In this document: piece by piece, positions 1-13,941 of the stretch
Position numbering within the stretch: position 1 is the first letter of the stretch
How the letters are laid out: each line of letters starts with the position of its first letter
Assembly: GCA_035624615.1 (NCBI GenBank)
Contig: DASPRE010000090.1
Span: 682 to 64,681 of the forward strand
Reading direction: 5' to 3'
Length of the DNA: 64,000 bases
From: Burkholderiales bacterium
Lineage (GTDB): Bacteria; Pseudomonadota; Gammaproteobacteria; Burkholderiales; JAHFRG01
Notes under the pieces: generated by a model
Databases searched by the model: none
Seen by the model: only the letters and a program-made list of their open reading frames with translations
Told to the model about the DNA's origin: nothing
Translations under genes and position numbers: made by a program

Positions 1-563
1 TCCGGAAAGCGACCGGCAAAGGGATCCTGTTTCTTCGCCCGGTCGTGCAGAACCGACATGGCGGCTTCGGTATTCGCAGCGGTTTCAAGGGAAGGGAAAA
101 ACAGTGATGCGCCGCTTTTCTGAAGTGCAATTAGGGTGGCGATTTGCTCATTCAATTGGCGAAGATCCTTGAGCGGAATATAAAGTGGGCCATATTTGCG
201 TATGAATCGCCGCTCGGCGCTCACATCGGTACGGACGCTGAGTATCAGGTCGGGTCGCGCAGCCGCGTACGCCCGGATTCGGTCACCCAACTGGGTCGCG
301 AACTCTAGCGGTGGGCCACTTTTCGCACCACGTATTACGATTCCCAGATGTTGAGAGCCTTCCATACGGTTGCGAAGTGTCTGGGCACCGCGTACCGCAG
401 GGGAATCGGCTGGTAAGAGTGCTTCGAGATCAGACCTTAGGTTCGCATACAGGTGTACCGTTGCACATCCGGCTGGGACCGTACTCGCGAAAGCCAATAG
501 GAGTACCGCGATGCGCAAGCGGCGGCTGGTCACGAGCTTTTGGAGCCACGCCAAAGCGTTCAC
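1..563 (-). CDS. MMPL/RND-superfamily lipid exporter, N-terminal part (runs off left edge; not in ORF track)
   Basis: Hand translation from GTG at 563, which overlaps the TGA of the upstream gene (GTGA), gives an open frame to base 1: MNALAWLQKLVTSRRLRIAVLLLAFASTVPAGCATVHLYANLRSDLEALLPADSPAVRGAQTLRNRMEGSQHLGIVIRG... An N-terminal TM helix followed by an xDLxxLLPxxSP motif is typical of MMPL proteins. Confidence 0.72.
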   Translation of the reverse strand, partial: MNALAWLQKLVTSRRLRIAVLLLAFASTVPAGCATVHLYANLRSDLEALLPADSPAVRGAQTLRNRMEGSQHLGIVIRGAKSGPPLEFATQLGDRIRAYAAARPDLILSVRTDVSAERRFIRKYGPLYIPLKDLRQLNEQIATLIALQKSGASLFFPSLETAANTEAAMSVLHDRAKKQDPFAGRFP

Positions 564-1981
564 GCGATGTAATCCATGAGTTGCATTGCGGCAACCGTCG
601 CCCGAACCGCGAGCCCGTGAAGCGGCTTGCACGGCAACCCGGGCAGATTCTCTCGGAACCACGCGAGTCCGCTGTCACCCGTGACGACGTCGTTGCGAGC
701 CAACAGGTTGGTAATCCAGCTGCCAGCGGCTACCCCGAGCGCAAGACCGTGCCCGCACCAGCCGACGGCGTGCAGAATATTTGGCGCGTCCGAGCATCTG
801 CCGATGGCCGGCAATCCATCCAGGACATAACCGATCGTGCCGCTCCACGCGTGCGAAATCCGCAGGTCTTCGCGAGCGAGGTCCGGAAAGGTTGCGAAGA
901 GTTTTTGCTGCAGATCTGTCAGGGTGTACGCCGGGATGCTTTCGATGTTGGCGCATTGGGCCGGGCAGGGACGTGGCTTGCCTCCACCGAAAATGAGGCG
1001 ATTATTGCTCGATAACCGAAAGTAATTGAATATTCGGCGCGCCTCCACAACGCCTTCCCGGCCGGCCCATCCAATGTTGGCGAACAAGGTGCGAGGGATC
1101 GGCTCAGTAGCGAGCACCTGTAATTGCAGCGGTATGATGCGGCGACAAAGCCGTCCCAAATTGCGCGCGTAACCGGCCGTGGCAAGGACAACCTGGTCGG
1201 CAATCACTTTCCCGCCGCTTGCCAAGGCCAGGCACATTCTGCCGAAGCCTGCACATCGCGTTAATGCGGAGACGGGGCTGCCTTCAAAAATGCGGGCATT
1301 ACGATCCGTTGCCGCCCTGGCGAGTCCTGCGACCAGCTTACCGGGGTGCAACATCCCGGCAGTGGACAGCCGAAGCGCCGCTGGCCCGCTACTTGCATTG
1401 CCCGGTGTAGGAGGCAACCGTATACATTTCGCCAATTGGTTGTCATTAAGCAACTCGACGCAGAATCCGCGGGCGTTGAGCCAGTCTGCCTGAGCTGATA
1501 GGCGACGACGCCCGGCCGCAGAACGCGCCCAATGAATCTGACCTGTGAAAGTCAGCTCGCAATCGATATGTTCGGTTGCGACAAGGTCGCCCACCATTTT
1601 CACGGCGCGCAGAGTTTCTCGATAGAGTGCCGCCGCACCGACATCGCCCAGCCGTCTGATCAATGCGAGCAGGTCTGGGCCCACTCCGGGTCCCAACATA
1701 CCCGTGTTGCGACCCGAGGCGCCAGAACCTACATACCCGGCCTCCAGCACGACGACCTGAAGCGACGGATAACGTAACAGCAAGTGATATGCGGTCGACA
1801 GCCCGGTGACACCGCCGCCTACAATGGCCACATCGGCACGAATAGTCTCCTTGGGGCAAGTCTCGTACCGTACGCGAGAATTCTCACCCCAAACGGGAGA
1901 TTCGATCATGGCGATCTCCGGGCGAAATCTGGATTTTGAAAATTCCCCGCCGCGACATCGTCCCCTTGTGTCTTCGACCAT
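560..1981 (-). CDS. FAD-dependent oxidoreductase, DAO/PuuB (gamma-glutamylputrescine oxidase)-like
   Basis: DVAIVGGGVTGLSTAYHL Rossmann motif, GASGRNTG, HPGKL, and C-terminal GWCGHGLALG. An alternative ATG start lies at 1909. Confidence 0.85.
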   Translation of the reverse strand: MVEDTRGRCRGGEFSKSRFRPEIAMIESPVWGENSRVRYETCPKETIRADVAIVGGGVTGLSTAYHLLLRYPSLQVVVLEAGYVGSGASGRNTGMLGPGVGPDLLALIRRLGDVGAAALYRETLRAVKMVGDLVATEHIDCELTFTGQIHWARSAAGRRRLSAQADWLNARGFCVELLNDNQLAKCIRLPPTPGNASSGPAALRLSTAGMLHPGKLVAGLARAATDRNARIFEGSPVSALTRCAGFGRMCLALASGGKVIADQVVLATAGYARNLGRLCRRIIPLQLQVLATEPIPRTLFANIGWAGREGVVEARRIFNYFRLSSNNRLIFGGGKPRPCPAQCANIESIPAYTLTDLQQKLFATFPDLAREDLRISHAWSGTIGYVLDGLPAIGRCSDAPNILHAVGWCGHGLALGVAAGSWITNLLARNDVVTGDSGLAWFRENLPGLPCKPLHGLAVRATVAAMQLMDYIA

Positions 1982-1997
1982 GAACGGGTTTCTAAAC

Positions 1998-2933
1998 TCA
2001 TCGCACCTTTACCCGCAGTGATCGCTGGAGCAATGTCAACCGCGCAGGTAGGCGTCCAACAATTTCGCCGTCAAGCTCCAGCAGCACACGGGAAGGACTT
2101 GTGGCCGTTACCTTGCTGGCGCGAAAAAGCTGGGTGCCTGCTTCGTGAATATGGGCCCCGTTATAGATAAATCGGCGCTTGCTGATAAAGTCCAACAAAC
2201 CGAAACCCGACCACAGTGTCACGTCGAATCTTGCATCATCGACCAGGGCATGCGGAGCGACATACATGCCGCCACCGAAATACTGCCCATTGCAAACCGC
2301 GCATGTAGTAACTGAATACTCGTGCGGTGATTCGTCGTCCAAAGTTATTGTGATGATTTGATCCTGGTAGAAGAGCAGGCTCTGTACTGTCGCCAGAGTA
2401 AAAGCCAACGAGCCGCTGAAGCGCTTGAGCGTCGGACTGAGGATGCGGGCGATTTGTCCGCTACAGCCAAACGAGGCAACGTTGAGAAAGACTCTTTCCA
2501 CGGTCTTTCCATCGTGATCGGTGAAAACGGCGTGGCCTACGTCAATGGGCCTGCTCTCGCTACCACCTAATCGTGCACACGCGTCCTCAAGACTAGTTGC
2601 GCCGAGGGTCCTGGCAAAATCGGATCCTGTGCCCTGTGGGACAACGCCTAGCATCGCGGCTGGGGCTACTGCGCGACCCTCCTGAAAGAAGCCGCACAAG
2701 ACCTCGTTTAAGGTTCCGTCCCCGCCCACCGCCACAATCATGTCAAAACTGTCTCGAAGCGCGCGAGCGCTTAGGCTCGTCGCGTGCAATGGTCCGGCGG
2801 TAAAGGCGTGCTCGAAAGCGCCAACCGCGTCTCGAATTAAAACAGCGATTTGCTCCCAACGCCGGCCGGTGGCGCCGGCAGCAGAAGCCGGGTTGACGAT
2901 GACCATTGTGCGCAGTTTGTCTTTGGCGGTCAT
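1998..2933 (-). CDS. Diacylglycerol/sphingosine kinase family protein (YegS-like; VlmJ-like by context)
   Basis: IVNPASAAG, VAVGGDGTLNEV, PQGTGSDFAR, GQYFGGG and LDGE are DAGK-family motifs. Confidence 0.9.
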   Translation of the reverse strand: MTAKDKLRTMVIVNPASAAGATGRRWEQIAVLIRDAVGAFEHAFTAGPLHATSLSARALRDSFDMIVAVGGDGTLNEVLCGFFQEGRAVAPAAMLGVVPQGTGSDFARTLGATSLEDACARLGGSESRPIDVGHAVFTDHDGKTVERVFLNVASFGCSGQIARILSPTLKRFSGSLAFTLATVQSLLFYQDQIITITLDDESPHEYSVTTCAVCNGQYFGGGMYVAPHALVDDARFDVTLWSGFGLLDFISKRRFIYNGAHIHEAGTQLFRASKVTATSPSRVLLELDGEIVGRLPARLTLLQRSLRVKVR

Positions 2934-2939
2934 CGCGAC

Positions 2940-4019
2940 TTACAAGGACCGAGTCAGCAGGAGAAGATCAAAGACAGCGCGCACCGATAAAGGTCTAGCG
3001 GCGAGAAATTCGCGCTCGATTATGTCCGGTGCCCACTTGAGCTTATATTGCGCCTGGCTCTCCGCCGGATAGATAGCGCCGCCATACCGGTAGAGGAGGG
3101 GCACTAGCCAAGCCGCCATGCGGTTCGCACCCGCAAACTCAGGACCTCCCACGACAAAGGGAGTGAAGCCAAAATGCAAATACGGCACTCCCTCGGCCAT
3201 CATGACCTCGATAGCCCGTGCATTGCATAATTCCAGGGCTCCCGGCGGGGCTAAGGGAAGCCGCCGACTCAAATCGTGCAGGTAACCGGGCGCCCGCCCC
3301 CATGAAGGAACGTAGGTAATGAAGGCCACGCATCGGTCGGTCGGATCAATGGCTGCAAAAATCCGCCGACGCACGTCCTCTGGCGAGCCAATCTCGCCAA
3401 TCATGAAATCAAGCTCTCTCTTGCTCTTGGCCCTGAGCCACGCCTGACTGACTGAATGCAGCTCGGCAAACGTCATTTCGTTTCGAGGCCAATCGACGCC
3501 AAACTCAACAACCCTCAGGCCGGATGCCCGGGCACGACTAATCTTGTTGCGCAGCTGCATTTTTTTTGTGCCGCGGAGCGTGAAGTTTTTCAGTGAAAGG
3601 CCGAAGGTAGTGCCGATCTGGTTGATCGAGAATCCGCGATCGCGAAACAGCTGGACCTGCTCGGTACGTAATTGAACGACAAGCACGCGCCGCCGACGCT
3701 TGGATGCGAAGGCAAGCAGGCGGTCAAGCAAAATGCCCCGCTGCGCTTGGGGTGCCTGGACACCACCCAGGGCAATCACATGTCGCCCCTGTTCCCTGAA
3801 GGAAATGAATCCGCTGATTCCCGGTACTGTGAAACGCTGATTCCTCGAAGAAAGCATAAGAAAGCCGGAAGGATGATCAATCAATGCCTCCACAGATTCT
3901 TCGCGTCGCGGCAATTTCATATCACTGGTTGCGGACCGAACATCTGAGCCTTCAGTGTCTTCCATAAGGGTCGTAACCCTGCGGCGAAAATTCAAATTCA
4001 TCGGTGAATTAGTTGCCAT
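2940..4019 (-). CDS. Stand-alone DUF2156 / MprF C-terminal-like aminoacyl-tRNA-dependent transferase (VlmA-like)
   Basis: No TM flippase domain. Motifs FTLRGTKKMQLRNKISRA, ELDFMIGE, GYLHDLSRR, LHFGFTPF and YPAESQAQYKLKWAP match the DUF2156/VlmA family as I recall it. Confidence 0.8.
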   Translation of the reverse strand: MATNSPMNLNFRRRVTTLMEDTEGSDVRSATSDMKLPRREESVEALIDHPSGFLMLSSRNQRFTVPGISGFISFREQGRHVIALGGVQAPQAQRGILLDRLLAFASKRRRRVLVVQLRTEQVQLFRDRGFSINQIGTTFGLSLKNFTLRGTKKMQLRNKISRARASGLRVVEFGVDWPRNEMTFAELHSVSQAWLRAKSKRELDFMIGEIGSPEDVRRRIFAAIDPTDRCVAFITYVPSWGRAPGYLHDLSRRLPLAPPGALELCNARAIEVMMAEGVPYLHFGFTPFVVGGPEFAGANRMAAWLVPLLYRYGGAIYPAESQAQYKLKWAPDIIEREFLAARPLSVRAVFDLLLLTRSL

Positions 4020-5083
4020 TACCGCTGAACTGCACCGACATTAAGCGCTTGGGCCAAAGCAGGGCTTCGACGCACGCGCCAGATTCTGGCATCAACTAGG
4101 TAGTGGTGGAACGCGACCCCCCAGCACAGCCCAAGCACCACGTTTCGGGCCGTTTCACTTGTCAGGGCGACCACGGTGGGGACTCGCAGGCCATACCAGA
4201 CGAGGCCAAGCAACAATCCGCCCGCAAGGTAGGGCACGAGACCCCCCAACGGGCGGCGGCCGCAGCCTGCCTCGTATTGCCAAACTATCCGATGGTATTG
4301 GAGGTTGTGGAAAATGGTGAGCGTGGCGAGGATCGTGAGCAAATGAGAGAGGAGAGCGAAGACCAGCATGTGAAATACGATCACGATGGCCAGCAGCAAA
4401 TGTTTTGGTCCTGGACGAAACGGCTCGTATCGGCCAGAGACGGCGAGTATTACGGCCGCTCCCATTAACAAGCAAAACGCCACATCCAGGATGAATGTTA
4501 GTTGGGGCAGCAGGGCGCTAGGAACGAGTTGCGGCAGCCCGCTGTGGAGATATGGCTCGCCAAGGGAAAAGCGTATAAACGGGTAAAGGCAGCCGGCCCA
4601 AAGCATGAAAGAATCGAGCGACTGACCACGCTGATCGTTCTCGCCGGCCCGCCTTCGGTAGAGCGCGAGAAATCCATAATGCTGCCGCACCAGATGCCAG
4701 TAGGCCCATAGGTAGGCAGCAAGGAGAAAATAGCTGAATAGTGTTCCCTGCAGCCGAAGCGCCGCATCGGTGAGTGCGAAAACGGGACCTATGGCAAGTA
4801 TCAGCCACCACCGGGGTTTTGGAATTCCGGCTCGTGAATTCGTGTCCGGTGCGAGATAGCTGCGCGCGTAAGTGGCCCAAACGTGCGTACCGTCGAACAG
4901 CACCCCCCATAAAAAAACCACAAGGATGACGGGATCGCTCGGGGAAAGATGCGCGCTATCCGGATATGGAGTGGCAACGAAAAAGACGAGCAGAAAAAGC
5001 CCGGCAATGACCGAGCCCTGAAACCAAAGCAAGTCATCGCGCCGCGAAATTATCCATGGGAGCGAAGGGTGATTGCTAACCAT
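4019..5083 (-). CDS. Multi-pass membrane protein with several His motifs, function unknown
   Basis: About 8 hydrophobic segments; DGTHVWATY, YWHLVRQHYG, FHNLQYH, FHHYLVD. Start re-called at ATG 5083, which overlaps the stop of the upstream gene. Confidence 0.7.
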   Translation of the reverse strand: MVSNHPSLPWIISRRDDLLWFQGSVIAGLFLLVFFVATPYPDSAHLSPSDPVILVVFLWGVLFDGTHVWATYARSYLAPDTNSRAGIPKPRWWLILAIGPVFALTDAALRLQGTLFSYFLLAAYLWAYWHLVRQHYGFLALYRRRAGENDQRGQSLDSFMLWAGCLYPFIRFSLGEPYLHSGLPQLVPSALLPQLTFILDVAFCLLMGAAVILAVSGRYEPFRPGPKHLLLAIVIVFHMLVFALLSHLLTILATLTIFHNLQYHRIVWQYEAGCGRRPLGGLVPYLAGGLLLGLVWYGLRVPTVVALTSETARNVVLGLCWGVAFHHYLVDARIWRVRRSPALAQALNVGAVQR

Positions 5084-6293
5084 ATTGAGGCTCCGGACTT
5101 GTTGCGAAAGAGGACCAGATCCGATCTTGAATGAAGGACCCCATAGGTGAGCCAGCGAACGCAAAGGCGCAGCGATGCAGAACGTCGCCGACCCGGCCGC
5201 CGAGGGCAAATAGCAGGCTCATCCAGTGCGAATTGCGGATAATCGCGGCATTGTAGCGGCGCCGCTCCCGTTCGTAGGCGGCAAAGCACGCGTCGATCTC
5301 GGCGGCCGCGGCGTTGCACTCGAGGGCAGTGCCCAGATGGCGGGCGAGCGCTGCGGCGTCCTCTATCGCCATCGTCATTCCCTGAGCCATCACTGGATTG
5401 ATGACATGGATGGCGTCGCCGAGCAACACGGCCCCGTGCGCCGAATAACTCGGCGCATGTGTGCGCCACAGCTTATACAAGTAAGCCCCCTCGGCAACCG
5501 GCCGGCGGCCCGCTAGCAACCGGGAGCGTCCCTCGATGTGCGAGTATTTCTTTTCTATTGAACCGGAACGAAACAAGTGTTCATGCTCCGAACGAATTAT
5601 CGCCGCGAGGCCGAGACGGTTGACGCCCGGAACGACCAGCACGCCGCCGTCGGGATGCAATTCAGTGCGCAGTACATCGGGCATGCCGACCGGGCGGTCG
5701 ATGTCCACAATGAATAAACTGTGGTTATAGGGAGCACGGCGGACCTCAATCCCTAGTCCTGCTCGGACGACAGACTTCGCGCCATCAGCGCCAATTACTA
5801 CGCGGCAGCTCAGTTGCTGCTCATTTCCATCGCTCCCTTTGATCAAGACACCCCGCACACGGTCGCCTTCCTTGATCAGAGACAACAGGCGTGTGCCATA
5901 TCGGACCTCAACACGCCCCGTTGCTACCGCCGACTCAACAAAAGAGCACTCGATTTTGGGATGTGGCAGCACGAGATATGGATCGGTGGCCTCAGGCAAA
6001 GCGAGTGGAACGTCCAACAATAGGCCATCGCGGTAATGGAAAAATTGCATCGTGTTTATCGGGCGCGCCCCCGCTGCGTAGCATCGGTCCAATGCGCCCC
6101 ATCGCTTGAGCAATGCAGTCACCGGGGGAAGCAGGCTTTCACCGCGGTTGATGTTGCCTGCCGCTAGGTGCCTTTCGATAAGCAGCACGCGAATTGCGCG
6201 GTTGTGGACAAGAGCCAACGCGCAGGCCGTGCCGCCGACACCGGCACCGACAATGATGACATCGTAATCGAATGGCTGAGGTGCGCTGCTCAT
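5076..6293 (-). CDS. Single-component FAD-dependent monooxygenase (group A, UbiH/squalene-epoxidase-like)
   Basis: IIVGAGVGG, VIGADGAKSVVR (DG motif) and LLGDAIHVINPVMAQGM (GD motif). Confidence 0.88.
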   Translation of the reverse strand: MSSAPQPFDYDVIIVGAGVGGTACALALVHNRAIRVLLIERHLAAGNINRGESLLPPVTALLKRWGALDRCYAAGARPINTMQFFHYRDGLLLDVPLALPEATDPYLVLPHPKIECSFVESAVATGRVEVRYGTRLLSLIKEGDRVRGVLIKGSDGNEQQLSCRVVIGADGAKSVVRAGLGIEVRRAPYNHSLFIVDIDRPVGMPDVLRTELHPDGGVLVVPGVNRLGLAAIIRSEHEHLFRSGSIEKKYSHIEGRSRLLAGRRPVAEGAYLYKLWRTHAPSYSAHGAVLLGDAIHVINPVMAQGMTMAIEDAAALARHLGTALECNAAAAEIDACFAAYERERRRYNAAIIRNSHWMSLLFALGGRVGDVLHRCAFAFAGSPMGSFIQDRIWSSFATSPEPQYG

Positions 6294-6303
6294 TAGTCGC
6301 CTC

Positions 6304-6717
6304 CTAATGCCCCGGTTGGCTGCCAGGCTCGAAGGGCAGTGCCCAGGGTTTCGAAAAGTTGCCCAGCAAACCGCGATCTCCGGACAGGTGGATCGGCACT
6401 GCTACCATCGCCCAGTCCGGGCCTCCGGCGGCGAGTGCCCAGAGTGCGACCGCGGCACCCACGACAACATAGTTATGGGTCAGGTTGTAGAGCACGTAAT
6501 AGATGCGTGGAATTTGTTTGCCGCCGGAACTGCGAAACGCCAGTGCTCCTGGCAGATAGCCAACCAAATCGATAAGCGCAAAGGCGGCGATAAACCGGCC
6601 CCAGGAGATCTCATCAAAGTGCGCAACCACCAGAGCGGTGAAAATTACGACTATGGCAACGTGTTCGGCTCGCATCCACCAGGAAGTGCCTTGCTTCGGA
6701 ACGAAGGTTGTGCTCAT
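6304..6717 (-). CDS. Small 4-TM membrane protein, DUF4260-like; resembles the VlmO membrane hydrazine synthase
   Basis: IDLVGYLPGA, YYVLYNLTH, PIHLSGDRGLLGNFSKP and FEP. Candidate metal ligands are D50, H81, H110 and D114. Confidence 0.7.
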   Translation of the reverse strand: MSTTFVPKQGTSWWMRAEHVAIVVIFTALVVAHFDEISWGRFIAAFALIDLVGYLPGALAFRSSGGKQIPRIYYVLYNLTHNYVVVGAAVALWALAAGGPDWAMVAVPIHLSGDRGLLGNFSKPWALPFEPGSQPGH

Positions 6718-6726
6718 TGCTGTTCC

Positions 6727-9207
6727 TCAGGCTGCGCCCATGACAGTGGTCAGATCTTGGTCGGGCGAGTATTCGCGCACAGCCCGTGGTAAAGCGAGAT
6801 GGAAACCGTGGCGATCGGCGAGCGCGAGCATGTGATCCACTTCTGCCAAGGACACGTTGTAGCCAACACCAAAATTACGAGTCTCACCCGACAGGGCTAA
6901 AAGAATTGTTTCCGCCAAACAGGCCAGCGTGACGCCGGGCGGCAAGTTATTGAGATTTCCGACTCCAAACTCGGTATTGGGATCCGGCAACGCGACCTGA
7001 CCGCCATCAAAAACAAAAAGATCATGTCGGGCGCGAATTGCGGCAGACGTGTCGGGCGGCTTGGCCACGTCGCAGATGATCGTGCCTGGCGCGAGCGATG
7101 CGGCTTCAAGCGCCGGGCGAGCCGCGGCTGTAGCAGTCAAAATGATTTGGCAGTCTTTAAGTACCGAAATGTCGTTAGCAATTTCGACCGCCGGCAGTCG
7201 AGTTCTTAGCTCATCGGCCAGGGTCTGCAGCGCTTTTACTGGCCGGCTCGGGTTGCCAACCAGAATCAGGCGCCGGAGTCGCTCGCGCGCAAGCAAGCGC
7301 GCACAAAGGCTGCCAACCGACCCGCGGGCGCCAACCACGGCTACGCAAGCCTGGCTGAGGCGCAAATGCCGCGCATCCGCCGCGGCCAGGATTGCTTTTA
7401 CCGCCATTCCCGCGGTAAGCGCATTGCCGGTGGTAATTGCAGGTCCCCGTCCGCATGCTGAAAGGCCGCGTCGGCTATAGGGGGCGGTATGCCCGCCGAG
7501 GCCGACAATGCGTGCCCCTAGGCTTGCCGCCAGATCAACCGCCCTATTTATATCCTGGGCGGTCTCGCGTATTCCGCGCAACGCCATTTCCTCTGGCAGG
7601 ATTGGAAGCGCTAAGATGAGTCCGTCAACGCTCTCGCCAGTAGCCGAATGGATGGTAGGGGCACGCATTACGACTCCGGGAGCCAATGCGCTGGTATAGG
7701 CGCACACGCGCCGCAGAACCGCATCATTGAACCCGTGAAGCGACGGGTTGGTTACCTCAAGATCCTCAGGGCGTGTGTAGTGACCCAGCCACGCGTACTT
7801 TGGCTTCGGAGCATCTTTGGGTAACCGTGTAGGTAATAGCGGGGCAGGGCCCGGATACGCGGTGTGGACTGCGAGGGGAAAGCCGTCGAACGCGCCGATT
7901 GCCCGCAGGATGGTACCGGTCGTGTCTTGCTGCAGCGCCTGGAAAACTCCATCGATCGCTTCGAGTGCCATCTCCAATTCGTGCTGCGAGATGATGAGAG
8001 GAGGTGTTATCCGAATAACATCGGAATTCCCGAGCGTTGGAAGGACCAGGACAGATCCTAATTGCGCTACCGTCGCCGCCACTGCATAGCTGTATAAACC
8101 CTGATTCGCGAGAAACGACAGGAATGTGCCCTGATGTTCTGGAGGGGAGCGCAACTCGATTGCGCTCATCAGCCCGCGACCACGCACGGCAGCTATAATC
8201 TGCGGATAACGTGTGGCCATCTGATTCAGGCGCTGCAACAGAATCCCGCCCCGCCGACTCACGTCTGCGCAAAACCCGTCGCTCGTCAGTATTTCCAGTA
8301 CCTTCAAACCGACTCGGCAGGCAACGTTATTGTTGGCAAACGTGGAGGAGTGTAGAAGCGAAAACTGCTCGTCCCAGAACTCCAGCGAGCTGAAACAGGC
8401 GCTGAGCGGGAATAAGCCCCCACCAAGCGCCTTTCCAAGCAACAGCACGTCTGGCTCGATCCCATCGTGTTCACAGGCGAAAAGTCGTCCAGTCCTGCCT
8501 AGCCCAGTTTGAATTTCGTCCAGGACCAGCGCTACGCCGTGCTGTGAACACAAACTGCGGACTCGCTTAAGATAACCAGGTGGTGGAAGATGAACCCCGC
8601 GCTCCCCCTGGATGGGCTCAAGAAAAAAGGCGGCAATTTTATTCCCGTCGCGGCTTAATCGGTCCTCCAATGCATCCGTGTCACCGAACTCAATAAACTC
8701 AACACCGGCCGGCGATGGGCCAAATGGTTCTGCGTATTGCCGCTGTCCGGTAAGCGCGAGGGCTCCCATGGTCTTGCCATGAAAGGACCCGGTCGCAGCC
8801 AGAATGATGGATCGGCCTGCACGTCTTCGGACCAGCTTGATCGCCGCCTCAACGGCTTCCGCACCCGAAGTTGTAATTATTCCGCGGGACAGATTTCCCG
8901 GGGCCAGTTCGGTTAGCGCATGGGCGAGTGCTTCAGCGTGACGGGCTCGATAAGGCTGAATCATGGCCGGTTCGCCACTGTCCAGCGCGGCACGCGCCGT
9001 CTCTATTATTTGGGACGCATTGTGTCCAAAAGCCAGCGCCCCGTATTGAGCATAGCAGTCCAGGAAATGTCTGCCGTCCGCATCGATGAGCCAGACCCCA
9101 TCGGCATGCTCCCACATACGGTCCATTCGTAGCAGCGCGAGCAGCCGGCGAAGTGTCGGATTGAGTCGACTGAGGTTTGTAGCCTCACTTTGCGCTCGAT
9201 CAAGCAT
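6727..9207 (-). CDS. Fusion of a class III PLP aminotransferase and an acyl-ACP (thioester) reductase-like domain
   Basis: N-half: SGAEAVEAA, FHGKT, EPIQGERG, DEIQTGLGRTG, GKALGGG (PLP Lys). C-half: LGARIVGLGG, TTGNALTA, VAVVGARGSVG, CDVAKPPD, TLACLAETILLAL, matching the cyanobacterial AAR pattern including the catalytic Cys. RBS GAGG upstream. Confidence 0.85.
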   Translation of the reverse strand: MLDRAQSEATNLSRLNPTLRRLLALLRMDRMWEHADGVWLIDADGRHFLDCYAQYGALAFGHNASQIIETARAALDSGEPAMIQPYRARHAEALAHALTELAPGNLSRGIITTSGAEAVEAAIKLVRRRAGRSIILAATGSFHGKTMGALALTGQRQYAEPFGPSPAGVEFIEFGDTDALEDRLSRDGNKIAAFFLEPIQGERGVHLPPPGYLKRVRSLCSQHGVALVLDEIQTGLGRTGRLFACEHDGIEPDVLLLGKALGGGLFPLSACFSSLEFWDEQFSLLHSSTFANNNVACRVGLKVLEILTSDGFCADVSRRGGILLQRLNQMATRYPQIIAAVRGRGLMSAIELRSPPEHQGTFLSFLANQGLYSYAVAATVAQLGSVLVLPTLGNSDVIRITPPLIISQHELEMALEAIDGVFQALQQDTTGTILRAIGAFDGFPLAVHTAYPGPAPLLPTRLPKDAPKPKYAWLGHYTRPEDLEVTNPSLHGFNDAVLRRVCAYTSALAPGVVMRAPTIHSATGESVDGLILALPILPEEMALRGIRETAQDINRAVDLAASLGARIVGLGGHTAPYSRRGLSACGRGPAITTGNALTAGMAVKAILAAADARHLRLSQACVAVVGARGSVGSLCARLLARERLRRLILVGNPSRPVKALQTLADELRTRLPAVEIANDISVLKDCQIILTATAAARPALEAASLAPGTIICDVAKPPDTSAAIRARHDLFVFDGGQVALPDPNTEFGVGNLNNLPPGVTLACLAETILLALSGETRNFGVGYNVSLAEVDHMLALADRHGFHLALPRAVREYSPDQDLTTVMGAA

Positions 9208-9527
9208 GATAGCTCGCCTCGTTAACCTCTCCCCGGTAAATGCGGTCGATTGCGACAGAGGAGATTTTGTCCAGCAATGTGTAGGCGCGGATGCGGTAGC
9301 CGACGAATATGGTTAATGCCCGCCAGCAAGGCGAAAACGCGTGTGTGAAAGATGGAGATTTCAGAACCGAACTGAGCCGTTGCCAAAAACCACGAGCAAC
9401 TGAATGGCGTTTGAAAAAAATGAAAATACATGCGCCTCCTAATATTGTGGCCTTTGCCGCCACCAGCGATTGCGCTGGGTTTGGCCGTTACTCTGTCACA
9501 TGGCGCATTACGGATGGGTAACGATTC

Positions 9528-9584
9528 GGTTACAGATTGCTTACTTACTTGCGTACCACCACGACTTGTAAGCGATCTGTAACC
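9528..9584. promoter_or_regulatory. 17-bp inverted repeat in the divergent promoter region of the cluster
   Basis: GGTTACAGATTGCTTAC (9528-9544) and GTAAGCGATCTGTAACC (9568-9584) are 16/17 complementary, with a 23-nt spacer. Confidence 0.6.
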
Positions 9585-9668
9585 AATATGTTAGCGATTG
9601 GTATGTCGCGGTTTGGTACCGTGGGCGTCGCGAATAGAACATCCCGATGGACTAAATGCAAAATCAAG

Positions 9669-11006
9669 ATGGCTGTTAGCGCAAGCCGAATTCAGAACGC
9701 GGTCGAGTTACTGGAATATGTAGCCGTCAGTGCCGGCATGATGTTCGGGGCTTCTTGTTTTCTGGTCCTTGGATTTATCGCCGAGGCCAATTCCGTCCGC
9801 AACATAGCCCTGGCGATCACCATTGCGGCAACCTTATGTATATCTACGGCTCTTGCCGTTGGCGAAATGGCCAGCCGCTTTCCATCGGCACCCGGAATTC
9901 GCACCTACATTAAATGTGCGTTTGGGGATGAGATCAGCCTCTTTTTTACCTACCTGTCGCTGTTAGTCGCCATTCTTTTCGCGGGAATTGAGATCAAGGT
10001 GTTTTGGGACGCAGTGTTGCCGGGAACTTCCCCGCATGCACGCGCCGTAGCTACATTCGCTATGATTGGCGTTCTGGGCTACCTGAACGTAACAGGACGC
10101 GAACTGCCGCGCCTTATTCAGGTGCTGATTTGCTCAGCGCTTGTGGCCGGGACTACTGCCGTATCGTGGGTTGCCATGACCCGAATAGACGTGGCGCTTG
10201 CCTACGCGCCAACCGGCCCGCAGGCATCATTCATATCCGCCATCGGCATTGCCTTCTTTGTTTTTATCGGTTTCGAATGGGTGACGCCAGCTGCCAAGTC
10301 GCCCGAGGCGTCGCGACGACTCATACCAATAAGCATGATTATTGCAATTGCGACACTTGCGATTACGTACCTGTTGTTTGCGGTGGCTCTGAATTTGGCC
10401 TTGCCGAGCGCCGATTTGCTGCAATCCAAAATACCTCACGTGTCGCTCGGCGGGCGGCTGTTCCCCGATCATGGAGCGCTGATAATGCAATGCCTGTCCG
10501 TTCTGGCATTGGTAACCATACTAAATGCGGGAGTCATTGGCGCGTCCCGTCTGCTTTATTTCCTGGGCCGGGACCGATCATTCTTTAGGTGGCTAAACGA
10601 GCGCTTGTCGATCCTCAATTCTAAAGGCGTTTCTTCCGCGAGCGTTGTGCTGCTGTGCGGTCTGTGCCTGCTTTCCTCACTATTGGAGATTTATCTGGAC
10701 TCTACCCAAAACATCGCTGAGCTGTGCGCCGGCCTCTACTGCTTGGTCTACTGCGCGTTCGTTGCATCACATATTCGGCTGCGCAAACAACCCGTAGATA
10801 GGGTTTTATTTCGCAGCCCTTTGCCCATCGGCCTTTATTATGTACTAGCCGCCATCTTGTTAATGCTTGGCATTGCAACGTTTCTTGGTTCAGTAGACCA
10901 CATTTCAACTAGGCTCCCGTTGCTCACGCTGATTGTCTTTCTGTCCGGTGCCGCTGCTTTTTACGTGGCCAAGTCAAGGCGTCTAGCAACATACCGAAAG
11001 ACGTGA
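9669..11006 (+). CDS. APC-superfamily amino acid/polyamine permease
   Basis: About 12 TMs; GMMFG, GEMASRFPSAPG, FFVFIGFEW, GASRLLYFLGRD. Start re-called at ATG 9669 (the ORF track extends to 9537). Confidence 0.85.
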   Translation: MAVSASRIQNAVELLEYVAVSAGMMFGASCFLVLGFIAEANSVRNIALAITIAATLCISTALAVGEMASRFPSAPGIRTYIKCAFGDEISLFFTYLSLLVAILFAGIEIKVFWDAVLPGTSPHARAVATFAMIGVLGYLNVTGRELPRLIQVLICSALVAGTTAVSWVAMTRIDVALAYAPTGPQASFISAIGIAFFVFIGFEWVTPAAKSPEASRRLIPISMIIAIATLAITYLLFAVALNLALPSADLLQSKIPHVSLGGRLFPDHGALIMQCLSVLALVTILNAGVIGASRLLYFLGRDRSFFRWLNERLSILNSKGVSSASVVLLCGLCLLSSLLEIYLDSTQNIAELCAGLYCLVYCAFVASHIRLRKQPVDRVLFRSPLPIGLYYVLAAILLMLGIATFLGSVDHISTRLPLLTLIVFLSGAAAFYVAKSRRLATYRKT

Positions 11007-11018
11007 AAAAACATTGCC

Positions 11019-11387
11019 ATGTCCGCAAAATCATCAGCGCTGGCTTTGCTAGAAACACTTGAAAAATTTCGCTCGAAAGTAAACGGCGATTCTCGTTTGA
11101 CGAATATTTTGCGAGGTTGGGAGCCAGTAATTATGCTCGAGGCGCTGAACACGCAGTGGAAGCGATATCTTCCCGTTCACGAATGTCACATTACCGAGAT
11201 CACATCGGACTTCAAGGATGCTTCGCATGTTGTCCGATTGCGATCCTCGGAGGAAACATTGATTGCGATTTTTGAAGGTAGATACAATCCAGTGGAGGCA
11301 TTTTTGAACGGCGAATTAGAATTATTTGCGACCGACAAGGACCAGCTTAAGCTAGACGCCATCAGCCTGCTGCTGTGGGGCATATAA
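11019..11387 (+). CDS. SCP2 sterol/lipid-carrier domain protein
   Basis: 122 aa; the C-terminal VRLRSSEETLIAIFEGRYNPVEAFLNGELEL pattern is typical of SCP2 domains. Confidence 0.7.
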   Translation: MSAKSSALALLETLEKFRSKVNGDSRLTNILRGWEPVIMLEALNTQWKRYLPVHECHITEITSDFKDASHVVRLRSSEETLIAIFEGRYNPVEAFLNGELELFATDKDQLKLDAISLLLWGI

Positions 11388-11421
11388 ATCGTACCATTTA
11401 TCATTGAATCGGGAACCCATA

Positions 11422-12369
11422 ATGAACTCCAGCAATTTAAACCGGCCGGCAGGCGCCGAGGCCCAGCCCAATCGAGCGACACCGACATATAGCGTTCAAA
11501 ATTGGGGCAACGGCAGGTGGGATATTCAGCAGTGGCTCGAACGAACCGCATGGCGAACGTTAAAGGACACAGAATATGGGCGTCCCAGGATCGAGAAGGG
11601 CATCTTGCCCGAGCTATTCAGCGATGGGCTGCTGCGACAGGTTTGTTTGATCGATATCGCCACGTTTATTGAAGCAGAGCGGACATCATTTGAGGCAGTG
11701 GCCGGCCTGCTGCGCTGTGCTCCGGATGAGAACAGTAAAGTTTATCTCGGTACCCAGGTAATGGACGAGTGCCGGCATTTTGAGGTGTTTTGCCGGCGCA
11801 TGGCTGATTTTGGCATTTCTCCCGAAGAGCGCAACAAGCTTGTTAAACGTTTTGCGACTCCCGCGATCAGGAAATTCTACGACTTGGTACTCGAGCAGGT
11901 GGATAAACGAGACTTTATTGCAGGCTGCTTGGCGCAGAACATAGTGATGGAAGGCATGTCCTATCCGGTTTATCGATATGAGATCAAATACTGGTCAAGG
12001 ATCGACTCGTCTTTAAGTCAGATCATTCGTGGTGCTTTTGCCGATGAAGTACACCATGTTTCTTATGGAGAAGCGATCATCAAGCATCACATAAAGGGAC
12101 TTGATCCATCCAAGAAATCGAAGCTACAGGCTCTAATAAGCGAATTTTCCGGATTGATGACGGAGGCGTTTGAGCAGGTAATCAGTCACTATATTGGCTT
12201 GTACCAGGAATGTGCGAACGAGCATATGTCACTGATGGCCAATATCGAAATTTTTCCGGGAAGGCTTATATCTTCGGTTTCGGAAGAAGATCAGGTCCGC
12301 CTGCTTCTTGGAGAGATAAGGCGTGAACATGCTCAACGTGCAGCTCGAATCGGGCTTTCCGCAAGTTGA
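11422..12369 (+). CDS. Ferritin-like non-heme diiron enzyme, VlmB-like
   Basis: Two E...ExxH repeats: FIEAE / TQVMDECRH and VMEG / ADEVHH. ATG at 11422 with an upstream GGGAA (the track starts at TTG 11404). Confidence 0.8.
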   Translation: MNSSNLNRPAGAEAQPNRATPTYSVQNWGNGRWDIQQWLERTAWRTLKDTEYGRPRIEKGILPELFSDGLLRQVCLIDIATFIEAERTSFEAVAGLLRCAPDENSKVYLGTQVMDECRHFEVFCRRMADFGISPEERNKLVKRFATPAIRKFYDLVLEQVDKRDFIAGCLAQNIVMEGMSYPVYRYEIKYWSRIDSSLSQIIRGAFADEVHHVSYGEAIIKHHIKGLDPSKKSKLQALISEFSGLMTEAFEQVISHYIGLYQECANEHMSLMANIEIFPGRLISSVSEEDQVRLLLGEIRREHAQRAARIGLSAS

Positions 12370-12510
12370 TCCGGGAAGGTTTCTCGTCTGGCCCTCGGCG
12401 CATGGACTCGGCGAGCAATATTGCGGGTCACAAGGTGCCTCGTCACATAGATTCGTAATTACTTTGGGCTGGCCGACTGCCGGGCAAACACGTTTTCAGT
12501 AATGGCATCC

Positions 12511-13941
12511 TCAGGAAGTTGCCCGACGTCCTTGGGCAACCGATGCAGAAGTGGCAGCGCACGCAGCGCGATCGGTTTCATCGGTAAGTGCACGCAATCG
12601 GTCGCTGATTTGCACCGGATACGGCGAACTTCGGTCTAGCGTTCTCAACGCGGCCGGCAGTCGTTGCAACGCGGTCTCGCAATAAGTTCGCGCCGCAGTG
12701 AGAGATGGTGTAGGTGCAATACGCTTTCCGGCGCGCATTACCGGCATAATCAACGGTACGCCCTCGCATTGGTCGCCTTCAACGGTTACCACGTCACCGC
12801 TCGCATGCCCAGCCCCGTCGAAGCGCCGAAATACCTGCTTTCGCCCGGGCCACGTAGCCTTACCCTCCGAGCGTTTCCTGCGTGCGCGTCCTGCGTACTC
12901 TTGCAATTTGTACGCGCAGTCTAGAGCCGGCGCATCCTCGGAAGTTACCAGGCTGGTGCCAACGCCAAATCCATCAATAGGCGCTCCCTCTGAAAGGATG
13001 CGGTGGATGAGTTGCTCGTCGAGACCACCACTCGCGAAGATGCCGATCGCGTGCAGGTTAGCGTCATCAAGGATTCGTCGCACGCGCCGCGCATGTTCGA
13101 CAAGGTTACCGCTATCGATTCGTACTGCACGGATATTGATACCGTCGTGTTGCAGCTTGCGGGCCAATTCAACAACCTTCGCAGCCCCGGCTTCAGTATC
13201 ATAGGTGTCGATCAGCAGCACGGCGTTTTCGGGATAAGCGCGGGCGAAGCGTTCGAACGCGAACAACTCGTCGTCATGCGCCTCGATGAACGAGTGCGCC
13301 ATGGTGCCGTAAAGCGGAATGCCAAAGCGCTTTCCGGCGAGCGCGGTAGCAGTTCCACCGTACCCGGCGAGATAACTCGCGCGAGCAGCGAGCAGGCCAG
13401 CCTCGGCGCCGTGGGCGCGACGCAGCCCGAAGTCCACCAGCAGTTTTCCCGGCGCCGCCAGCACCGCTCGCGCAGCTTTTGAGGCAACCACGGTTTCGAG
13501 TTGCAGCAGCGCCACGATTCGTGTCTCCACTAGTTGTGCCTGCGGGAGCGCCGAGGTCACGCGCAAGATGGGCTCGTCCGGAAAGAAAGGTGTGCCTTCA
13601 GGCATGGCATCTACGTCGCCAGTGAAACGTAATTTCGCCAGCCAATCTAGAAATTTGGGACGGAAGCGGTACTTTGTCTCGAGCCAAACTAGTTCATCCT
13701 GGGTAAAGTGAAGGTCTTCCAGGAATTCGAGCACCTGCTCCAGGCCCGCGGCAATGAGAAAATTTCGGTTTAGCGGCAGCTTGCGTACGAAGAACTCGAA
13801 CACGGCTGTATCTTGCATTCCATACTCGTGATACGCCGCGAGCATGGTCAATTGATAGAGGTCCGTCAACAGTGCACTGGCGCCAGGGTCCGGGGCCACG
13901 GAAACTTCCTGGACAGCGAAGGTTGAAGAGCCTGACTTCAT
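12511..13941 (-). CDS. pncB: Nicotinate phosphoribosyltransferase
   Basis: LLTDLYQLTM, DFGLRRAHG, GTMAHSF, LLIDTYDT, VRIDSG, FASGGLDE, FGVGT. Confidence 0.95.
   Translation of the reverse strand: MKSGSSTFAVQEVSVAPDPGASALLTDLYQLTMLAAYHEYGMQDTAVFEFFVRKLPLNRNFLIAAGLEQVLEFLEDLHFTQDELVWLETKYRFRPKFLDWLAKLRFTGDVDAMPEGTPFFPDEPILRVTSALPQAQLVETRIVALLQLETVVASKAARAVLAAPGKLLVDFGLRRAHGAEAGLLAARASYLAGYGGTATALAGKRFGIPLYGTMAHSFIEAHDDELFAFERFARAYPENAVLLIDTYDTEAGAAKVVELARKLQHDGINIRAVRIDSGNLVEHARRVRRILDDANLHAIGIFASGGLDEQLIHRILSEGAPIDGFGVGTSLVTSEDAPALDCAYKLQEYAGRARRKRSEGKATWPGRKQVFRRFDGAGHASGDVVTVEGDQCEGVPLIMPVMRAGKRIAPTPSLTAARTYCETALQRLPAALRTLDRSSPYPVQISDRLRALTDETDRAACAATSASVAQGRRATS

What the first reader, a model, noticed from the sequence alone, without database searches (positions are those of the whole stretch)
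2940..4019. Stand-alone DUF2156 protein: tRNA-dependent aminoacyl transfer inside a biosynthetic operon
It lacks the MprF flippase domain and sits among tailoring enzymes, like VlmA. No dedicated aminoacyl-tRNA synthetase paralog (VlmL equivalent) is present in the window. The pathway may therefore borrow housekeeping aminoacyl-tRNA, or the synthetase may lie off the left edge. Which amino acid it transfers is unknown.
Basis: partly seen in the sequence, partly recalled or inferred. Interest (0 to 1): 0.65.

Follow-up and report, generated by a model that had tools for sequence, protein, structure and literature searches.

The report
VlmA-type tRNA-dependent transferase gene
This free-standing relative of the lipid-lysylating enzyme MprF most likely uses a charged tRNA to build a nitrogen-nitrogen (hydrazine/azoxy) fatty compound. 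That chemistry is described so far only in Streptomyces relatives, and here it sits in a modified operon of an uncultured Burkholderiales bacterium.

Summary
The ORF at 2940-4019 (-) is real. It is one LPG_synthase_C/DUF2156 domain (Pfam E 1.8e-47) with no flippase, translationally coupled to both neighbours and under purifying selection.

In trees the protein falls in a well-supported clade of stand-alone DUF2156 proteins whose genes lie next to VlmO-type hydrazine synthase genes, including Streptomyces clusters with the VlmA/H/O/R/B/L gene set. Every MprF is outside, and forcing the query's clade together with MprF is rejected (AU p 1e-10). The operon also carries VlmO-like, VlmB-like and VlmJ-like genes. 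Natural VlmO::DUF2156 fusion proteins exist in the same clade.

No synthetase paralogue is linked to the cluster. The genome shows one SerRS. The true left flank, read from homologous contigs, is MMPL-pgsA-uvrC. None of 24 non-actinobacterial loci has a SerRS nearby, against 14 actinobacterial loci that do.

The amino acid donor remains unknown. Serine is the best guess, resting only on the adjacent VlmJ-like kinase.

What is new is the variant. It forms a distinct clade in at least six mostly uncultured Gram-negative phyla, uses a different hydroxylase candidate, adds an unknown His-rich membrane protein, and has no VlmK lyase.

The parts
2940..4019 (-). Stand-alone DUF2156/LPG_synthase_C protein, 359 aa (possibly 326 aa from M34 at 3920): VlmA-type aminoacyl-tRNA-dependent transferase
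   Evidence: Pfam PF09924 E 1.8e-47. Tandem-GNAT model, pLDDT 89. Lies in the VlmO-linked clade, outside MprF. D249, R252, K326 and K328 are invariant in 52 relatives.
4019..5083 (-). His/Asp-rich polytopic membrane protein (354 aa from the conserved Met) of unknown function, translationally coupled to the DUF2156 gene
   Evidence: No Pfam or NCBIfam hit. Invariant D64, H67, H130, H135, H259, H264, H327 and D331 in 13 homologues. Model pLDDT 87.6 with no PDB fold match, best E 0.16. Found in 17 non-actinobacterial loci and no actinobacterial one.
5076..6293 (-). FAD_binding_3 (UbiH/PHBH-type) single-component flavin monooxygenase: candidate amine N-hydroxylase replacing VlmH/VlmR
   Evidence: Pfam PF01494 E 1.1e-38. 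Homologues in most non-actinobacterial loci, which have no VlmR and have VlmH in only two. The role is inferred.
6304..6717 (-). 137-aa membrane protein: VlmO-type hydrazine (N-N bond) synthase candidate
   Evidence: D50, H81, H110 and D114 are invariant in 6 homologues. VlmO's essential residues are D51, H82, H110 and D114 (PMC11705231). Five of 6 homologues hit PF14079 DUF4260, best E 1.5e-5. 42-53% identical relatives lie in Streptomyces, Kitasatospora and Salinispora azoxy-type clusters.
6727..9207 (-). Class-III aminotransferase fused to an NAD(P)-binding reductase-like domain (826 aa): probable alkylamine-forming enzyme
   Evidence: Pfam Aminotran_3 E 1.8e-93 plus a Shikimate_DH-like Rossmann domain. 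NCBIfam PigE model E 1.4e-160, below its cut-off. Conserved at the head of the operon in all related loci.
1998..2933 (-). YegS/DAGK-family kinase (311 aa), VlmJ-like, starting 6 nt after the DUF2156 stop
   Evidence: Pfam DAGK_cat plus YegS_C. TIGR00147 scores above its cut-off. A Streptomyces VlmJ-like kinase that sits beside a VlmK-like gene matches it at 48 bits. Homologues are in 16 of 24 non-actinobacterial loci.
560..1981 (-). DAO-family FAD oxidoreductase (473 aa)
   Evidence: Pfam PF01266 E 1.1e-62. Conserved in most non-actinobacterial loci. In 11 actinobacterial loci it occurs where no VlmB-like diiron gene is found.
1..662 (-). N-terminal part of an MMPL/RND-type transporter, cut by the contig end
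   Evidence: The full gene (about 815-848 aa, Pfam MMPL) is seen in the second copy and in ENA contigs of the same locus.
9537..11006 (+). Amino acid permease, first gene of the divergent arm
   Evidence: Pfam AA_permease_2 E 2.6e-25. A permease also lies between the VlmB-like and SerRS genes in Streptomyces lavendulae.
11019..11387 (+). Small SCP2-like protein (122 aa)
   Evidence: Weak Pfam SCP2 hit, E 0.007. Conserved in the second copy and in the ENA contigs.
11404..12369 (+). Ferritin-like diiron oxygenase, VlmB-like
   Evidence: Weak Pfam Ribonuc_red_sm and AurF hits. phmmer finds a homologue next to the VlmO-like gene in 64 loci, including the AurF-like gene of the S. lavendulae cluster.

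Best explanation
The gene encodes a VlmA-type aminoacyl-tRNA-dependent transferase.

Proposed pathway; only the homologies are shown, every chemical step is inferred:
1. The aminotransferase-reductase fusion turns a fatty acyl thioester into an alkylamine.
2. The FAD_binding_3 monooxygenase N-hydroxylates the amine.
3. The DUF2156 protein takes an amino acid from an ordinary cellular aminoacyl-tRNA and esterifies it to the hydroxylamine oxygen. The donor is most likely Ser-tRNA, with about even odds.
4. The 137-aa VlmO-like membrane enzyme rearranges this labile ester into a hydrazine, forming the N-N bond.
5. The VlmB-like diiron enzyme, and/or the DAO-type flavoprotein, oxidises the hydrazine towards an azo or azoxy group.
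6. The VlmJ-like kinase phosphorylates the serine-derived hydroxyl.
7. The amphiphilic product leaves through the MMPL transporter.

No dedicated synthetase is needed; the pathway draws on the translational aa-tRNA pool, as proposed for azodyrecin.
For: Domain and fold. There is a single LPG_synthase_C domain and a tandem-GNAT model. The basic helix 151-165 carries invariant R157 and near-invariant K159 and R162. It aligns with the helix region that a review describes as the tRNA acceptor-stem binder of aaPGS (PMC6103681).

Phylogeny.
- All 72 DUF2156 genes found within 10 kb of a VlmO-like gene score 173-483 bits against the query. PDB MprF domains score 30-52 bits and the best MprF-length representative 89 bits.
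- A 90-row clade (SH-aLRT 99) holds the query and every VlmO-linked protein, and excludes every MprF.
- The careful tree puts MprF on its own side with support 100/91, and the query in a non-actinobacterial clade with support 100/100.
- The AU test rejects joining the query's clade with MprF, p 9.7e-11.

Context.
- The same gene set recurs in 20 or more loci from Myxococcota, Planctomycetota, Methylomirabilota, Binatota, Acidobacteriota and Pseudomonadota.
- The actinobacterial sister loci have the published azoxy core. S. lavendulae carries VlmA | VlmH, VlmO, VlmR, VlmB, permease, SerRS. S. beigongshangae carries VlmA | VlmJ, VlmK, aldehyde dehydrogenase, VlmH, aminotransferase, VlmO (definition in PMC9379638).

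Rosetta stone. Single proteins fuse a VlmO-like N-terminus to DUF2156. These are P0126 (50% identical to the query), P0128, P0131, P0133, and ORFs in a Pirellulales and an Acidimicrobiia genome.

VlmO link. D50, H81, H110 and D114 are conserved, matching VlmO's essential D51, H82, H110 and D114.

Selection and coupling. dN/dS is 0.16 and the stop and start codons overlap.

No linked aaRS. Precedent: the azodyrecin cluster has none (PMC9379638).

Accessory character. The gene is present in 1 of 9 same-genus genomes and in none of 51 same-order genomes. In the one same-genus genome that has it, it sits at a different site.
Against: - No biochemical step has been tested for any member of the non-actinobacterial clade, and no product is known.
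- No characterised VlmA, AzdA or Ady7 sequence could be placed in the tree. The 'VlmA-type' label rests on gene context in Streptomyces loci, not on the named proteins.
- The expected hydroxylase pair VlmH/VlmR is absent, and an N-hydroxylase role for a PHBH-type flavoprotein is a guess.
- There is a VlmJ-like kinase but no VlmK lyase anywhere near. The genome's only MmgE/PrpD gene is on another contig.
- Two conserved genes, the His-rich membrane protein and the DAO oxidase, have no assigned step.
- No residue pattern separates serine-linked from other actinobacterial relatives, so donor specificity could not be read from sequence.
- One related operon ends in an LPG_synthase_TM gene, which keeps a lipid-flipping reading alive.
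Confidence: 0.75

Rival explanations
1. It is a split MprF. The soluble synthase aminoacylates phosphatidylglycerol or another membrane lipid (Lys/Ala-PG type), and the MMPL or an LPG_synthase_TM protein moves the product. The neighbouring redox genes would be unrelated to its substrate.
For: Same domain and fold as the aaPGS synthase domains, with the conserved D-x-x-R and K-x-K motifs. The genome has no fused MprF. One related operon carries an LPG_synthase_TM gene, and others an MMPL gene.
Against: Trees and the AU test put it outside all MprF-type proteins. It fails the MprF and LysX equivalog cut-offs by a wide margin. It is found with VlmO-like genes throughout its clade and is physically fused to one in several proteins. 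It occurs sporadically in the genus, unlike a core envelope function. The LPG_synthase_TM gene is in only 1 of the loci held.
Confidence: 0.07
2. It is tRNA-dependent, but it acylates the alkylamine nitrogen, or another nucleophile, to make an N-aminoacyl fatty amine (a lipo-amino acid). N-N bond formation would not be the outcome in this clade.
For: AzdA was proposed to put alanine on the non-hydroxylated fatty amine when the reductase AzdR is missing (bioRxiv 10.1101/2023.10.13.562208). This operon lacks VlmH/VlmR, and the assigned hydroxylase is only a guess.
Against: VlmO-like and VlmB-like genes are conserved next to it across phyla, with the VlmO metal ligands intact. The VlmO::DUF2156 fusions are hard to explain if the VlmO substrate is never made.
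Confidence: 0.12
3. It is an inactive or decaying remnant, or an assembly chimera, with no function in this organism.
For: The locus exists in two 85%-identical versions in the MAG. ENA contigs show a mosaic whose switch point lies inside this gene.
Against: The frame is intact and dN/dS is 0.16. All family-invariant residues are present and the fold prediction is confident. The longest identical run between the two versions is 47 nt, too short to cause a k=141 assembly switch.
Confidence: 0.02

Closest known systems
VlmA of the valanimycin pathway (Streptomyces viridifaciens / Kitasatospora setae) and its actinobacterial homologues as defined by VlmA/VlmH/VlmO/VlmB linkage (PMC9379638)
   Same: Stand-alone DUF2156 tandem-GNAT protein. 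It falls in the same clade as the VlmO/VlmB-linked actinobacterial proteins at 34-43% identity. It is linked to VlmO-, VlmB- and VlmJ-like genes.
   Different: It sits in a separate, strongly supported non-actinobacterial subclade. There is no VlmL seryl-tRNA synthetase, no VlmH/VlmR and no VlmK. The amine comes from a fatty acyl reductase-transaminase fusion rather than from valine decarboxylation. A His-rich membrane protein and a DAO oxidase are added. The characterised VlmA sequence itself was not available for comparison.
AzdA / Ady7 of the azodyrecin pathway (Streptomyces)
   Same: Fatty-amine substrate logic (reductase plus class-III transaminase). There is no cluster-encoded aaRS, so the housekeeping aa-tRNA pool would be used (PMC9379638).
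   Different: Azodyrecin uses Ala-tRNA and has no kinase. This operon has a VlmJ-like kinase, which argues for a hydroxy amino acid. The hydroxylase type and the phylum also differ.
MprF / aaPGS synthase domain (for example P. aeruginosa A-PGS 4V34, B. licheniformis L-PGS 4V36, R. tropici LpiA 6LV0)
   Same: Same Pfam family and fold, TM 0.70-0.80. The DLxR and KxK motifs align to D765, R768 and K840 of A-PGS. That these A-PGS residues matter for catalysis is my recollection of Hebecker et al.; it was not confirmed in the papers I could read.
   Different: Identity is only 18-24% and there is no transmembrane flippase. It is phylogenetically excluded from MprF, and its gene context is redox and N-N chemistry rather than envelope genes.
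FemX and other tRNA-dependent GNAT peptidyl transferases (PacB, DhpH-C, Orf11/Sbb17)
   Same: Tandem-GNAT aa-tRNA transferases used in secondary metabolism. Foldseek finds Sbb17 and FemX at TM about 0.5.
   Different: They belong to a different Pfam family and form amide bonds on amines. There is no sequence-level similarity.

Membership tests
VlmA-type tRNA-dependent transferases (stand-alone DUF2156 of N-N bond clusters) | Single LPG_synthase_C/DUF2156 tandem-GNAT domain without the MprF membrane domain | tested here: met
   Pfam PF09924 is the only hit, at 1.8e-47. Model pLDDT 89, tandem GNAT. Both copies in the genome are stand-alone.
VlmA-type tRNA-dependent transferases (stand-alone DUF2156 of N-N bond clusters) | Groups phylogenetically with DUF2156 proteins encoded beside VlmO/VlmB genes, apart from MprF | tested here: met
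   90-row clade with SH-aLRT 99. MRCA of VlmO-linked rows has support 96/75, and MprF separates at 100/91. AU p 9.7e-11 against union with MprF. Caveat: the characterised VlmA, AzdA and Ady7 sequences were not in the tree.
VlmA-type tRNA-dependent transferases (stand-alone DUF2156 of N-N bond clusters) | Encoded with a VlmO-type membrane hydrazine synthase and a VlmB-type diiron oxygenase | tested here: met
   The 137-aa protein has the D/H/H/D set and DUF4260 affinity. The diiron gene is homologous to the AurF-like gene of Streptomyces clusters. The same linkage recurs across loci.
VlmA-type tRNA-dependent transferases (stand-alone DUF2156 of N-N bond clusters) | Paired with the two-component N-hydroxylase VlmH/VlmR (the criterion used for genome mining in PMC9379638) | tested here: not met
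   There is no VlmH- or VlmR-like gene in the window. VlmR is absent from all 24 non-actinobacterial loci and VlmH is in only 2. A FAD_binding_3 monooxygenase takes the place.
VlmA-type tRNA-dependent transferases (stand-alone DUF2156 of N-N bond clusters) | Transfers an aminoacyl group from aa-tRNA to the oxygen of an N-alkylhydroxylamine | not testable with these tools
   This needs an enzyme assay. Only the conserved motifs and the basic helix are seen.
MprF / aminoacyl-phosphatidylglycerol synthases | Synthase domain fused to, or operating with, an N-terminal LPG_synthase_TM flippase | tested here: not met
   There is no TM domain in the ORF and no fused form in the genome. NCBIfam MprF scores 82 bits against a cut-off of 600, and LysX 51 against 742.
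MprF / aminoacyl-phosphatidylglycerol synthases | Clusters with Lys-/Ala-PG synthases in a family tree | tested here: not met
   All MprF-length representatives and PDB MprF domains fall outside its clade. The AU test rejects the union.
MprF / aminoacyl-phosphatidylglycerol synthases | Acceptor is phosphatidylglycerol | not testable with these tools
   This needs a lipid analysis or an enzyme assay.
FemXAB-family peptidyl transferases | FemAB Pfam domain; peptidoglycan precursor as acceptor | tested here: not met
   No FemAB hit. There is only distant fold similarity, TM about 0.5 and 12-13% identity.

The most novel reading that the evidence does not exclude
The DUF2156 protein and its seven or eight conserved partners make a so-far unseen class of amphiphile. 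It would be a long-chain alkyl hydrazine or azoxy amino-acid conjugate whose serine-derived hydroxyl stays phosphorylated, because a kinase is present but no lyase. Such a molecule would be a phospholipid-like, N-N-bonded membrane or exported lipid.

It would be produced by uncultured Myxococcota, Planctomycetota, Methylomirabilota, Binatota, Acidobacteriota and Proteobacteria. The transferase would work at the membrane in a complex with the VlmO-type enzyme; in some lineages the two are fused into one protein.
Probability: 0.3. Interest if true: 0.8.

Novelty: new variant of a known kind. Interest (0 to 1): 0.6.

Why it matters
tRNA-dependent N-N bond pathways of the VlmA/VlmO/VlmB type have been surveyed only in Streptomyces and other actinobacteria (PMC9379638; bioRxiv 10.1101/2023.10.13.562208). 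I found no paper in the searchable library that describes them elsewhere.

This gene belongs to a coherent sister clade spread over at least six mostly uncultured Gram-negative phyla, with different feeder and tailoring enzymes. That widens the known range of enzymatic hydrazine/azoxy chemistry. It also offers natural VlmO::VlmA fusions as tools for studying how the unstable O-aminoacyl-hydroxylamine is handed over.

A compact related cluster in culturable Photorhabdus would make the chemistry testable at the bench.

Finally, the locus is a clean example of secondary metabolism drawing on the translational aa-tRNA pool without a dedicated synthetase.

Tried and rejected
1. Reading the donor amino acid from sequence. 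I compared 24 actinobacterial relatives linked to SerRS, VlmJ or VlmK with 21 that have none of these. No column was conserved in the first set and different in the second, so no call can be made from sequence.

2. Placing characterised VlmA, AzdA or Ady7 in the tree. I used context-defined Streptomyces loci instead.

3. Checking the literature for A-PGS catalytic residues D765 and K840. They were not found in the two open papers I read, so that mapping is marked as recollection.

4. Assigning the His-rich membrane neighbour. There is no Pfam or NCBIfam hit even at E 10 and no PDB fold match.

5. Searching for an AlaRS paralogue. The assembly lacks AlaRS altogether, which shows incompleteness rather than biology.

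7. The 'split MprF' reading and the 'gene remnant or assembly chimera' reading were considered and rejected; see the rival explanations.
Full report
**1. The observation**

The ORF listing gives a 359-aa ATG-started ORF at 2940-4019 on the minus strand. Its only Pfam match is PF09924 LPG_synthase_C (DUF2156): E 1.8e-47, covering 288 of 298 profile positions.

NCBIfam's full-length MprF and LysX models match only the same region. They score far below their cut-offs, 82 against 600 and 51 against 742 bits. The protein is therefore the synthase domain alone.

The start ATG overlaps the TAA of the upstream gene by one base, and the next gene starts 6 nt after its stop.

Residues 1-37 are not conserved and are predicted disordered. 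Most homologues have 329-333 residues, and the public record of this contig calls a 326-aa product. The start may therefore be M34 (window 3920).

The AlphaFold2 model (pLDDT 89, pTM 0.84) is a tandem-GNAT fold. The best PDB matches are the MprF synthase domains (TM 0.70-0.80, 18-24% identity), followed by the tRNA-dependent peptide synthases Sbb17/Sba18 and FemX.

**2. The surroundings**

The gene sits in a tight minus-strand operon, in this order:
- class-III aminotransferase fused to a reductase-like domain (6727-9207)
- a 137-aa membrane protein (6304-6717)
- a FAD_binding_3 monooxygenase (5076-6293)
- a His-rich membrane protein (4019-5083)
- the DUF2156 gene
- a YegS/DAGK-family kinase (1998-2933)
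- a DAO-family flavoprotein (560-1981)
- an MMPL transporter, cut by the contig end

A divergent arm encodes a permease, an SCP2-like protein and a ferritin-like diiron protein (9537-12369).

The same gene set, with some reshuffling, is found on unrelated metagenome contigs and in about 20 species-representative genomes. These come from Myxococcota, Planctomycetota, Methylomirabilota, Binatota, Acidobacteriota and Pseudomonadota.

**3. Link to the azoxy pathways**

*The VlmO-like protein.* The 137-aa protein keeps D50, H81, H110 and D114 invariant across six homologues. A review reports D51, H82, H110 and D114 as the essential, probably iron-binding, residues of VlmO, the membrane hydrazine synthase of valanimycin biosynthesis (PMC11705231). 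Five of the six homologues hit PF14079 DUF4260, the family to which the azodyrecin VlmO homologue Ady6 was weakly assigned (PMC9379638).

*Related loci.* A scan of 185,579 species genomes with this small protein returned 80 loci. About three quarters are from Streptomyces, Kitasatospora, Salinispora, Actinomadura and relatives. A DUF2156 gene lies within 10 kb in 72 of them.

*Two Streptomyces loci read in detail.* Both have the published core.
- S. lavendulae: DUF2156 | acyl-CoA-dehydrogenase-like VlmH, VlmO-like, flavin reductase VlmR, AurF-like diiron VlmB, permease, seryl-tRNA synthetase.
- S. beigongshangae: DUF2156 | DAGK/YegS_C kinase (VlmJ), MmgE/PrpD (VlmK), aldehyde dehydrogenase, VlmH, class-III aminotransferase, VlmO-like.

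**4.

*Similarity.* A HMMER search of 1.84 billion representatives gave a graded series of stand-alone relatives. The first MprF-length protein appears only at 89 bits. Actinobacterial VlmO-linked proteins score 173-257 bits against the query and are 34-43% identical.

*Quick tree, 113 rows.* A clade with SH-aLRT 99 (branch length 0.46) holds the query, all 53 actinobacterial and all 19 other VlmO-linked proteins, and 16 unlabelled representatives. Every MprF-length protein and both PDB MprF domains are outside. The query lies in a 21-row non-actinobacterial subclade with support 99.

*Careful tree, 61 rows.* MprF sits on its own side at 100/91. The smallest clade holding all VlmO-linked rows has support 96/75. 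The query's subclade has 100/100.

*AU test.* Forcing the query's subclade together with MprF costs 170 log-likelihood units, AU p 9.7e-11.

*Conserved residues.* Family-wide invariant residues include D249, L250, R252, K326, K328 and W329. These align with D765, R768 and K840 of P. aeruginosa A-PGS. That those A-PGS residues are catalytically important is my recollection and could not be confirmed in the papers I could open.

*tRNA-binding helix.* Helix 151-165 is rich in conserved basic residues: R157 invariant, K159 and R162 at 90% or more. It lies in the aligned position of the basic helix that is described as binding the tRNA acceptor stem in aaPGS and FemX (PMC6103681).

**5. Fusions**

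Several proteins in the query's part of the tree carry a VlmO-like N-terminus and a DUF2156 C-terminus in one chain:
- P0126 (489 aa, 50% identical to the query over the DUF2156 part)
- P0128, P0131 and P0133
- single uninterrupted ORFs in a Pirellulales and an Acidimicrobiia genome

This is independent evidence that the two activities act on consecutive steps. It fits a hand-over of the unstable O-aminoacyl-hydroxylamine at the membrane.

**6. The synthetase question**

The window holds no aaRS among about 40 ORFs scanned and only a tRNA-Asn gene.

Only 681 nt of contig lie to the left of the window. The same locus can be read further in a second version on contig C87 and in three ENA contigs. 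To the left of the MMPL gene come a small ORF, pgsA, uvrC, a uracil-DNA glycosylase and efp. No synthetase lies off the left edge.

A genome-wide search with the class-II core domain finds one each of ThrRS, SerRS (cut by a contig end), ProRS and HisRS.

A SerRS gene lies within 10 kb of the VlmO-like gene in 14 actinobacterial loci and in none of the 24 non-actinobacterial ones.

The azodyrecin cluster is a published precedent for using the cellular aa-tRNA pool.

One limit applies. The assembly is 95.7% complete and lacks even AlaRS, so an unlinked paralogue cannot be strictly excluded.

**7. Which amino acid**

This is not resolved. A search for specificity-determining columns found none.

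The only pointer is the kinase gene directly downstream, which is present in 16 of 24 non-actinobacterial loci. In valanimycin biosynthesis VlmJ phosphorylates the serine-derived hydroxyl before VlmK eliminates phosphate. That favours Ser, or possibly Thr.

No VlmK-like gene exists in any non-actinobacterial locus. The genome's single MmgE/PrpD gene is a strong match on another contig, presumably housekeeping PrpD. The phosphate may therefore stay on the product, or be removed by an unrecognised enzyme.

**8. Differences from the known pathways**

- VlmH/VlmR are replaced by a PHBH-type flavoprotein. VlmR is absent from all non-actinobacterial loci and VlmH is present in two.
- A 354-aa membrane protein with eight invariant His/Asp residues is specific to this clade. 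It has no family assignment and no PDB fold match.
- A DAO-type flavoprotein accompanies the diiron enzyme here. In 11 actinobacterial loci the same flavoprotein occurs where no VlmB-like gene is found, which suggests it is an alternative hydrazine oxidase.
- Export genes vary: MMPL here, and an LPG_synthase_TM gene in one locus.

**9. Genomic status**

The host is an uncultured Burkholderiales bacterium. This rests on the names carried by proteins in the same 90% cluster as its EF-P.

The cluster is accessory. It is present in 1 of 9 other genomes of the genus and in none of 51 genomes of the order. In that one relative it sits at a different site, which is empty in this genome at C72:50501/50521.

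The MAG holds two versions of the whole 14.5-kb segment, about 85% identical in DNA. dN/dS is 0.12-0.26 for all ten genes.

Three ENA assemblies show one locus between pncA-pncB and pgsA-uvrC. That locus is 99.8-100% C25-type up to about window 3840 and 99-100% C87-type beyond about 3750, so the switch lies inside the DUF2156 gene. The longest identical run between the two versions is 47 nt, which argues against a k=141 assembly artefact.

**10. Verdict**

The gene is best described as a VlmA-type aminoacyl-tRNA-dependent transferase in a new, non-actinobacterial variant of the aliphatic hydrazine/azoxy pathway, working without a dedicated synthetase. The homologies and linkages are shown. Every chemical step, the donor amino acid and the product are inferred.

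Earlier notes of this scan on the same operon, on its second copy and on another genome reached the same reading. I treat them as agreement, not as evidence.

Noticed in passing
window 1-14517, and G000 contig C87:65860-81032 (L005): The whole cluster plus pncB exists in two versions in this MAG, about 85% identical in DNA. Each version ends at a contig end. dN/dS is 0.12-0.26 for all ten genes. They could be tandem paralogues or alleles of co-assembled strains.
   Followed up: partly
window about 3750-3840 (inside the DUF2156 gene); L091-L093: Three ENA contigs carry one copy of the locus that is a mosaic. It is identical to the window's version from pncA to the 5' part of the DUF2156 gene, and identical to the C87 version from there to uvrC. 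This looks like a recombination breakpoint inside the gene.
   Followed up: yes
G002:C41 (L089-L090) compared with G000 C72:50501/50521: In the one same-genus genome that has the cluster, it is inserted at a different chromosomal site. That site is empty in this genome, with a 20-bp junction, so the roughly 15-17 kb cassette moves as a unit.
   Followed up: partly
window 4019-5083 (-): A conserved polytopic membrane protein with invariant D64, H67, H130, H135, H259, H264, H327 and D331. It has no family hit and no PDB fold match despite a confident model. It occurs only in the non-actinobacterial clusters.
   Followed up: partly
P0126, P0128, P0131, P0133; L024:9968-11383; L056:9968-11452: Natural single-chain fusions of a VlmO-like membrane domain to a DUF2156 transferase domain.
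   Followed up: yes
L051, L056, L058, L066, L068, L070, L072, L076, L077, L082, L087: All eleven actinobacterial VlmO-linked loci that carry a homologue of the window's DAO-type flavoprotein lack a detectable VlmB-like diiron gene. The flavoprotein may be an alternative hydrazine oxidase. The window has both.
   Followed up: no
L094:4936-11038 (Photorhabdus, GCA_042879415.1): Culturable Photorhabdus species carry a compact related cluster: VlmO-like 127 aa, VlmB-like 298 aa, VlmH-like 348 aa, aminotransferase-reductase fusion 855 aa, DUF2156 345 aa. It lies directly upstream of a BREX defence system.
   Followed up: partly
L007:14226-15287: One related operon ends in a stand-alone LPG_synthase_TM gene (the MprF flippase-type membrane domain) instead of an MMPL gene. 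This hints that the product is lipid-like and is translocated.
   Followed up: partly
whole genome G000: No AlaRS (PF01411) is detectable in the assembly, and SerRS is cut by a contig end (C122:1-861). Absence calls in this MAG need caution.
   Followed up: no
window 9537-12369 and L049:11076-13527: An amino-acid permease is encoded next to the VlmB-like diiron gene both here and in the Streptomyces lavendulae cluster. This association may be conserved, for example for uptake of the amino acid or amine precursor.
   Followed up: no
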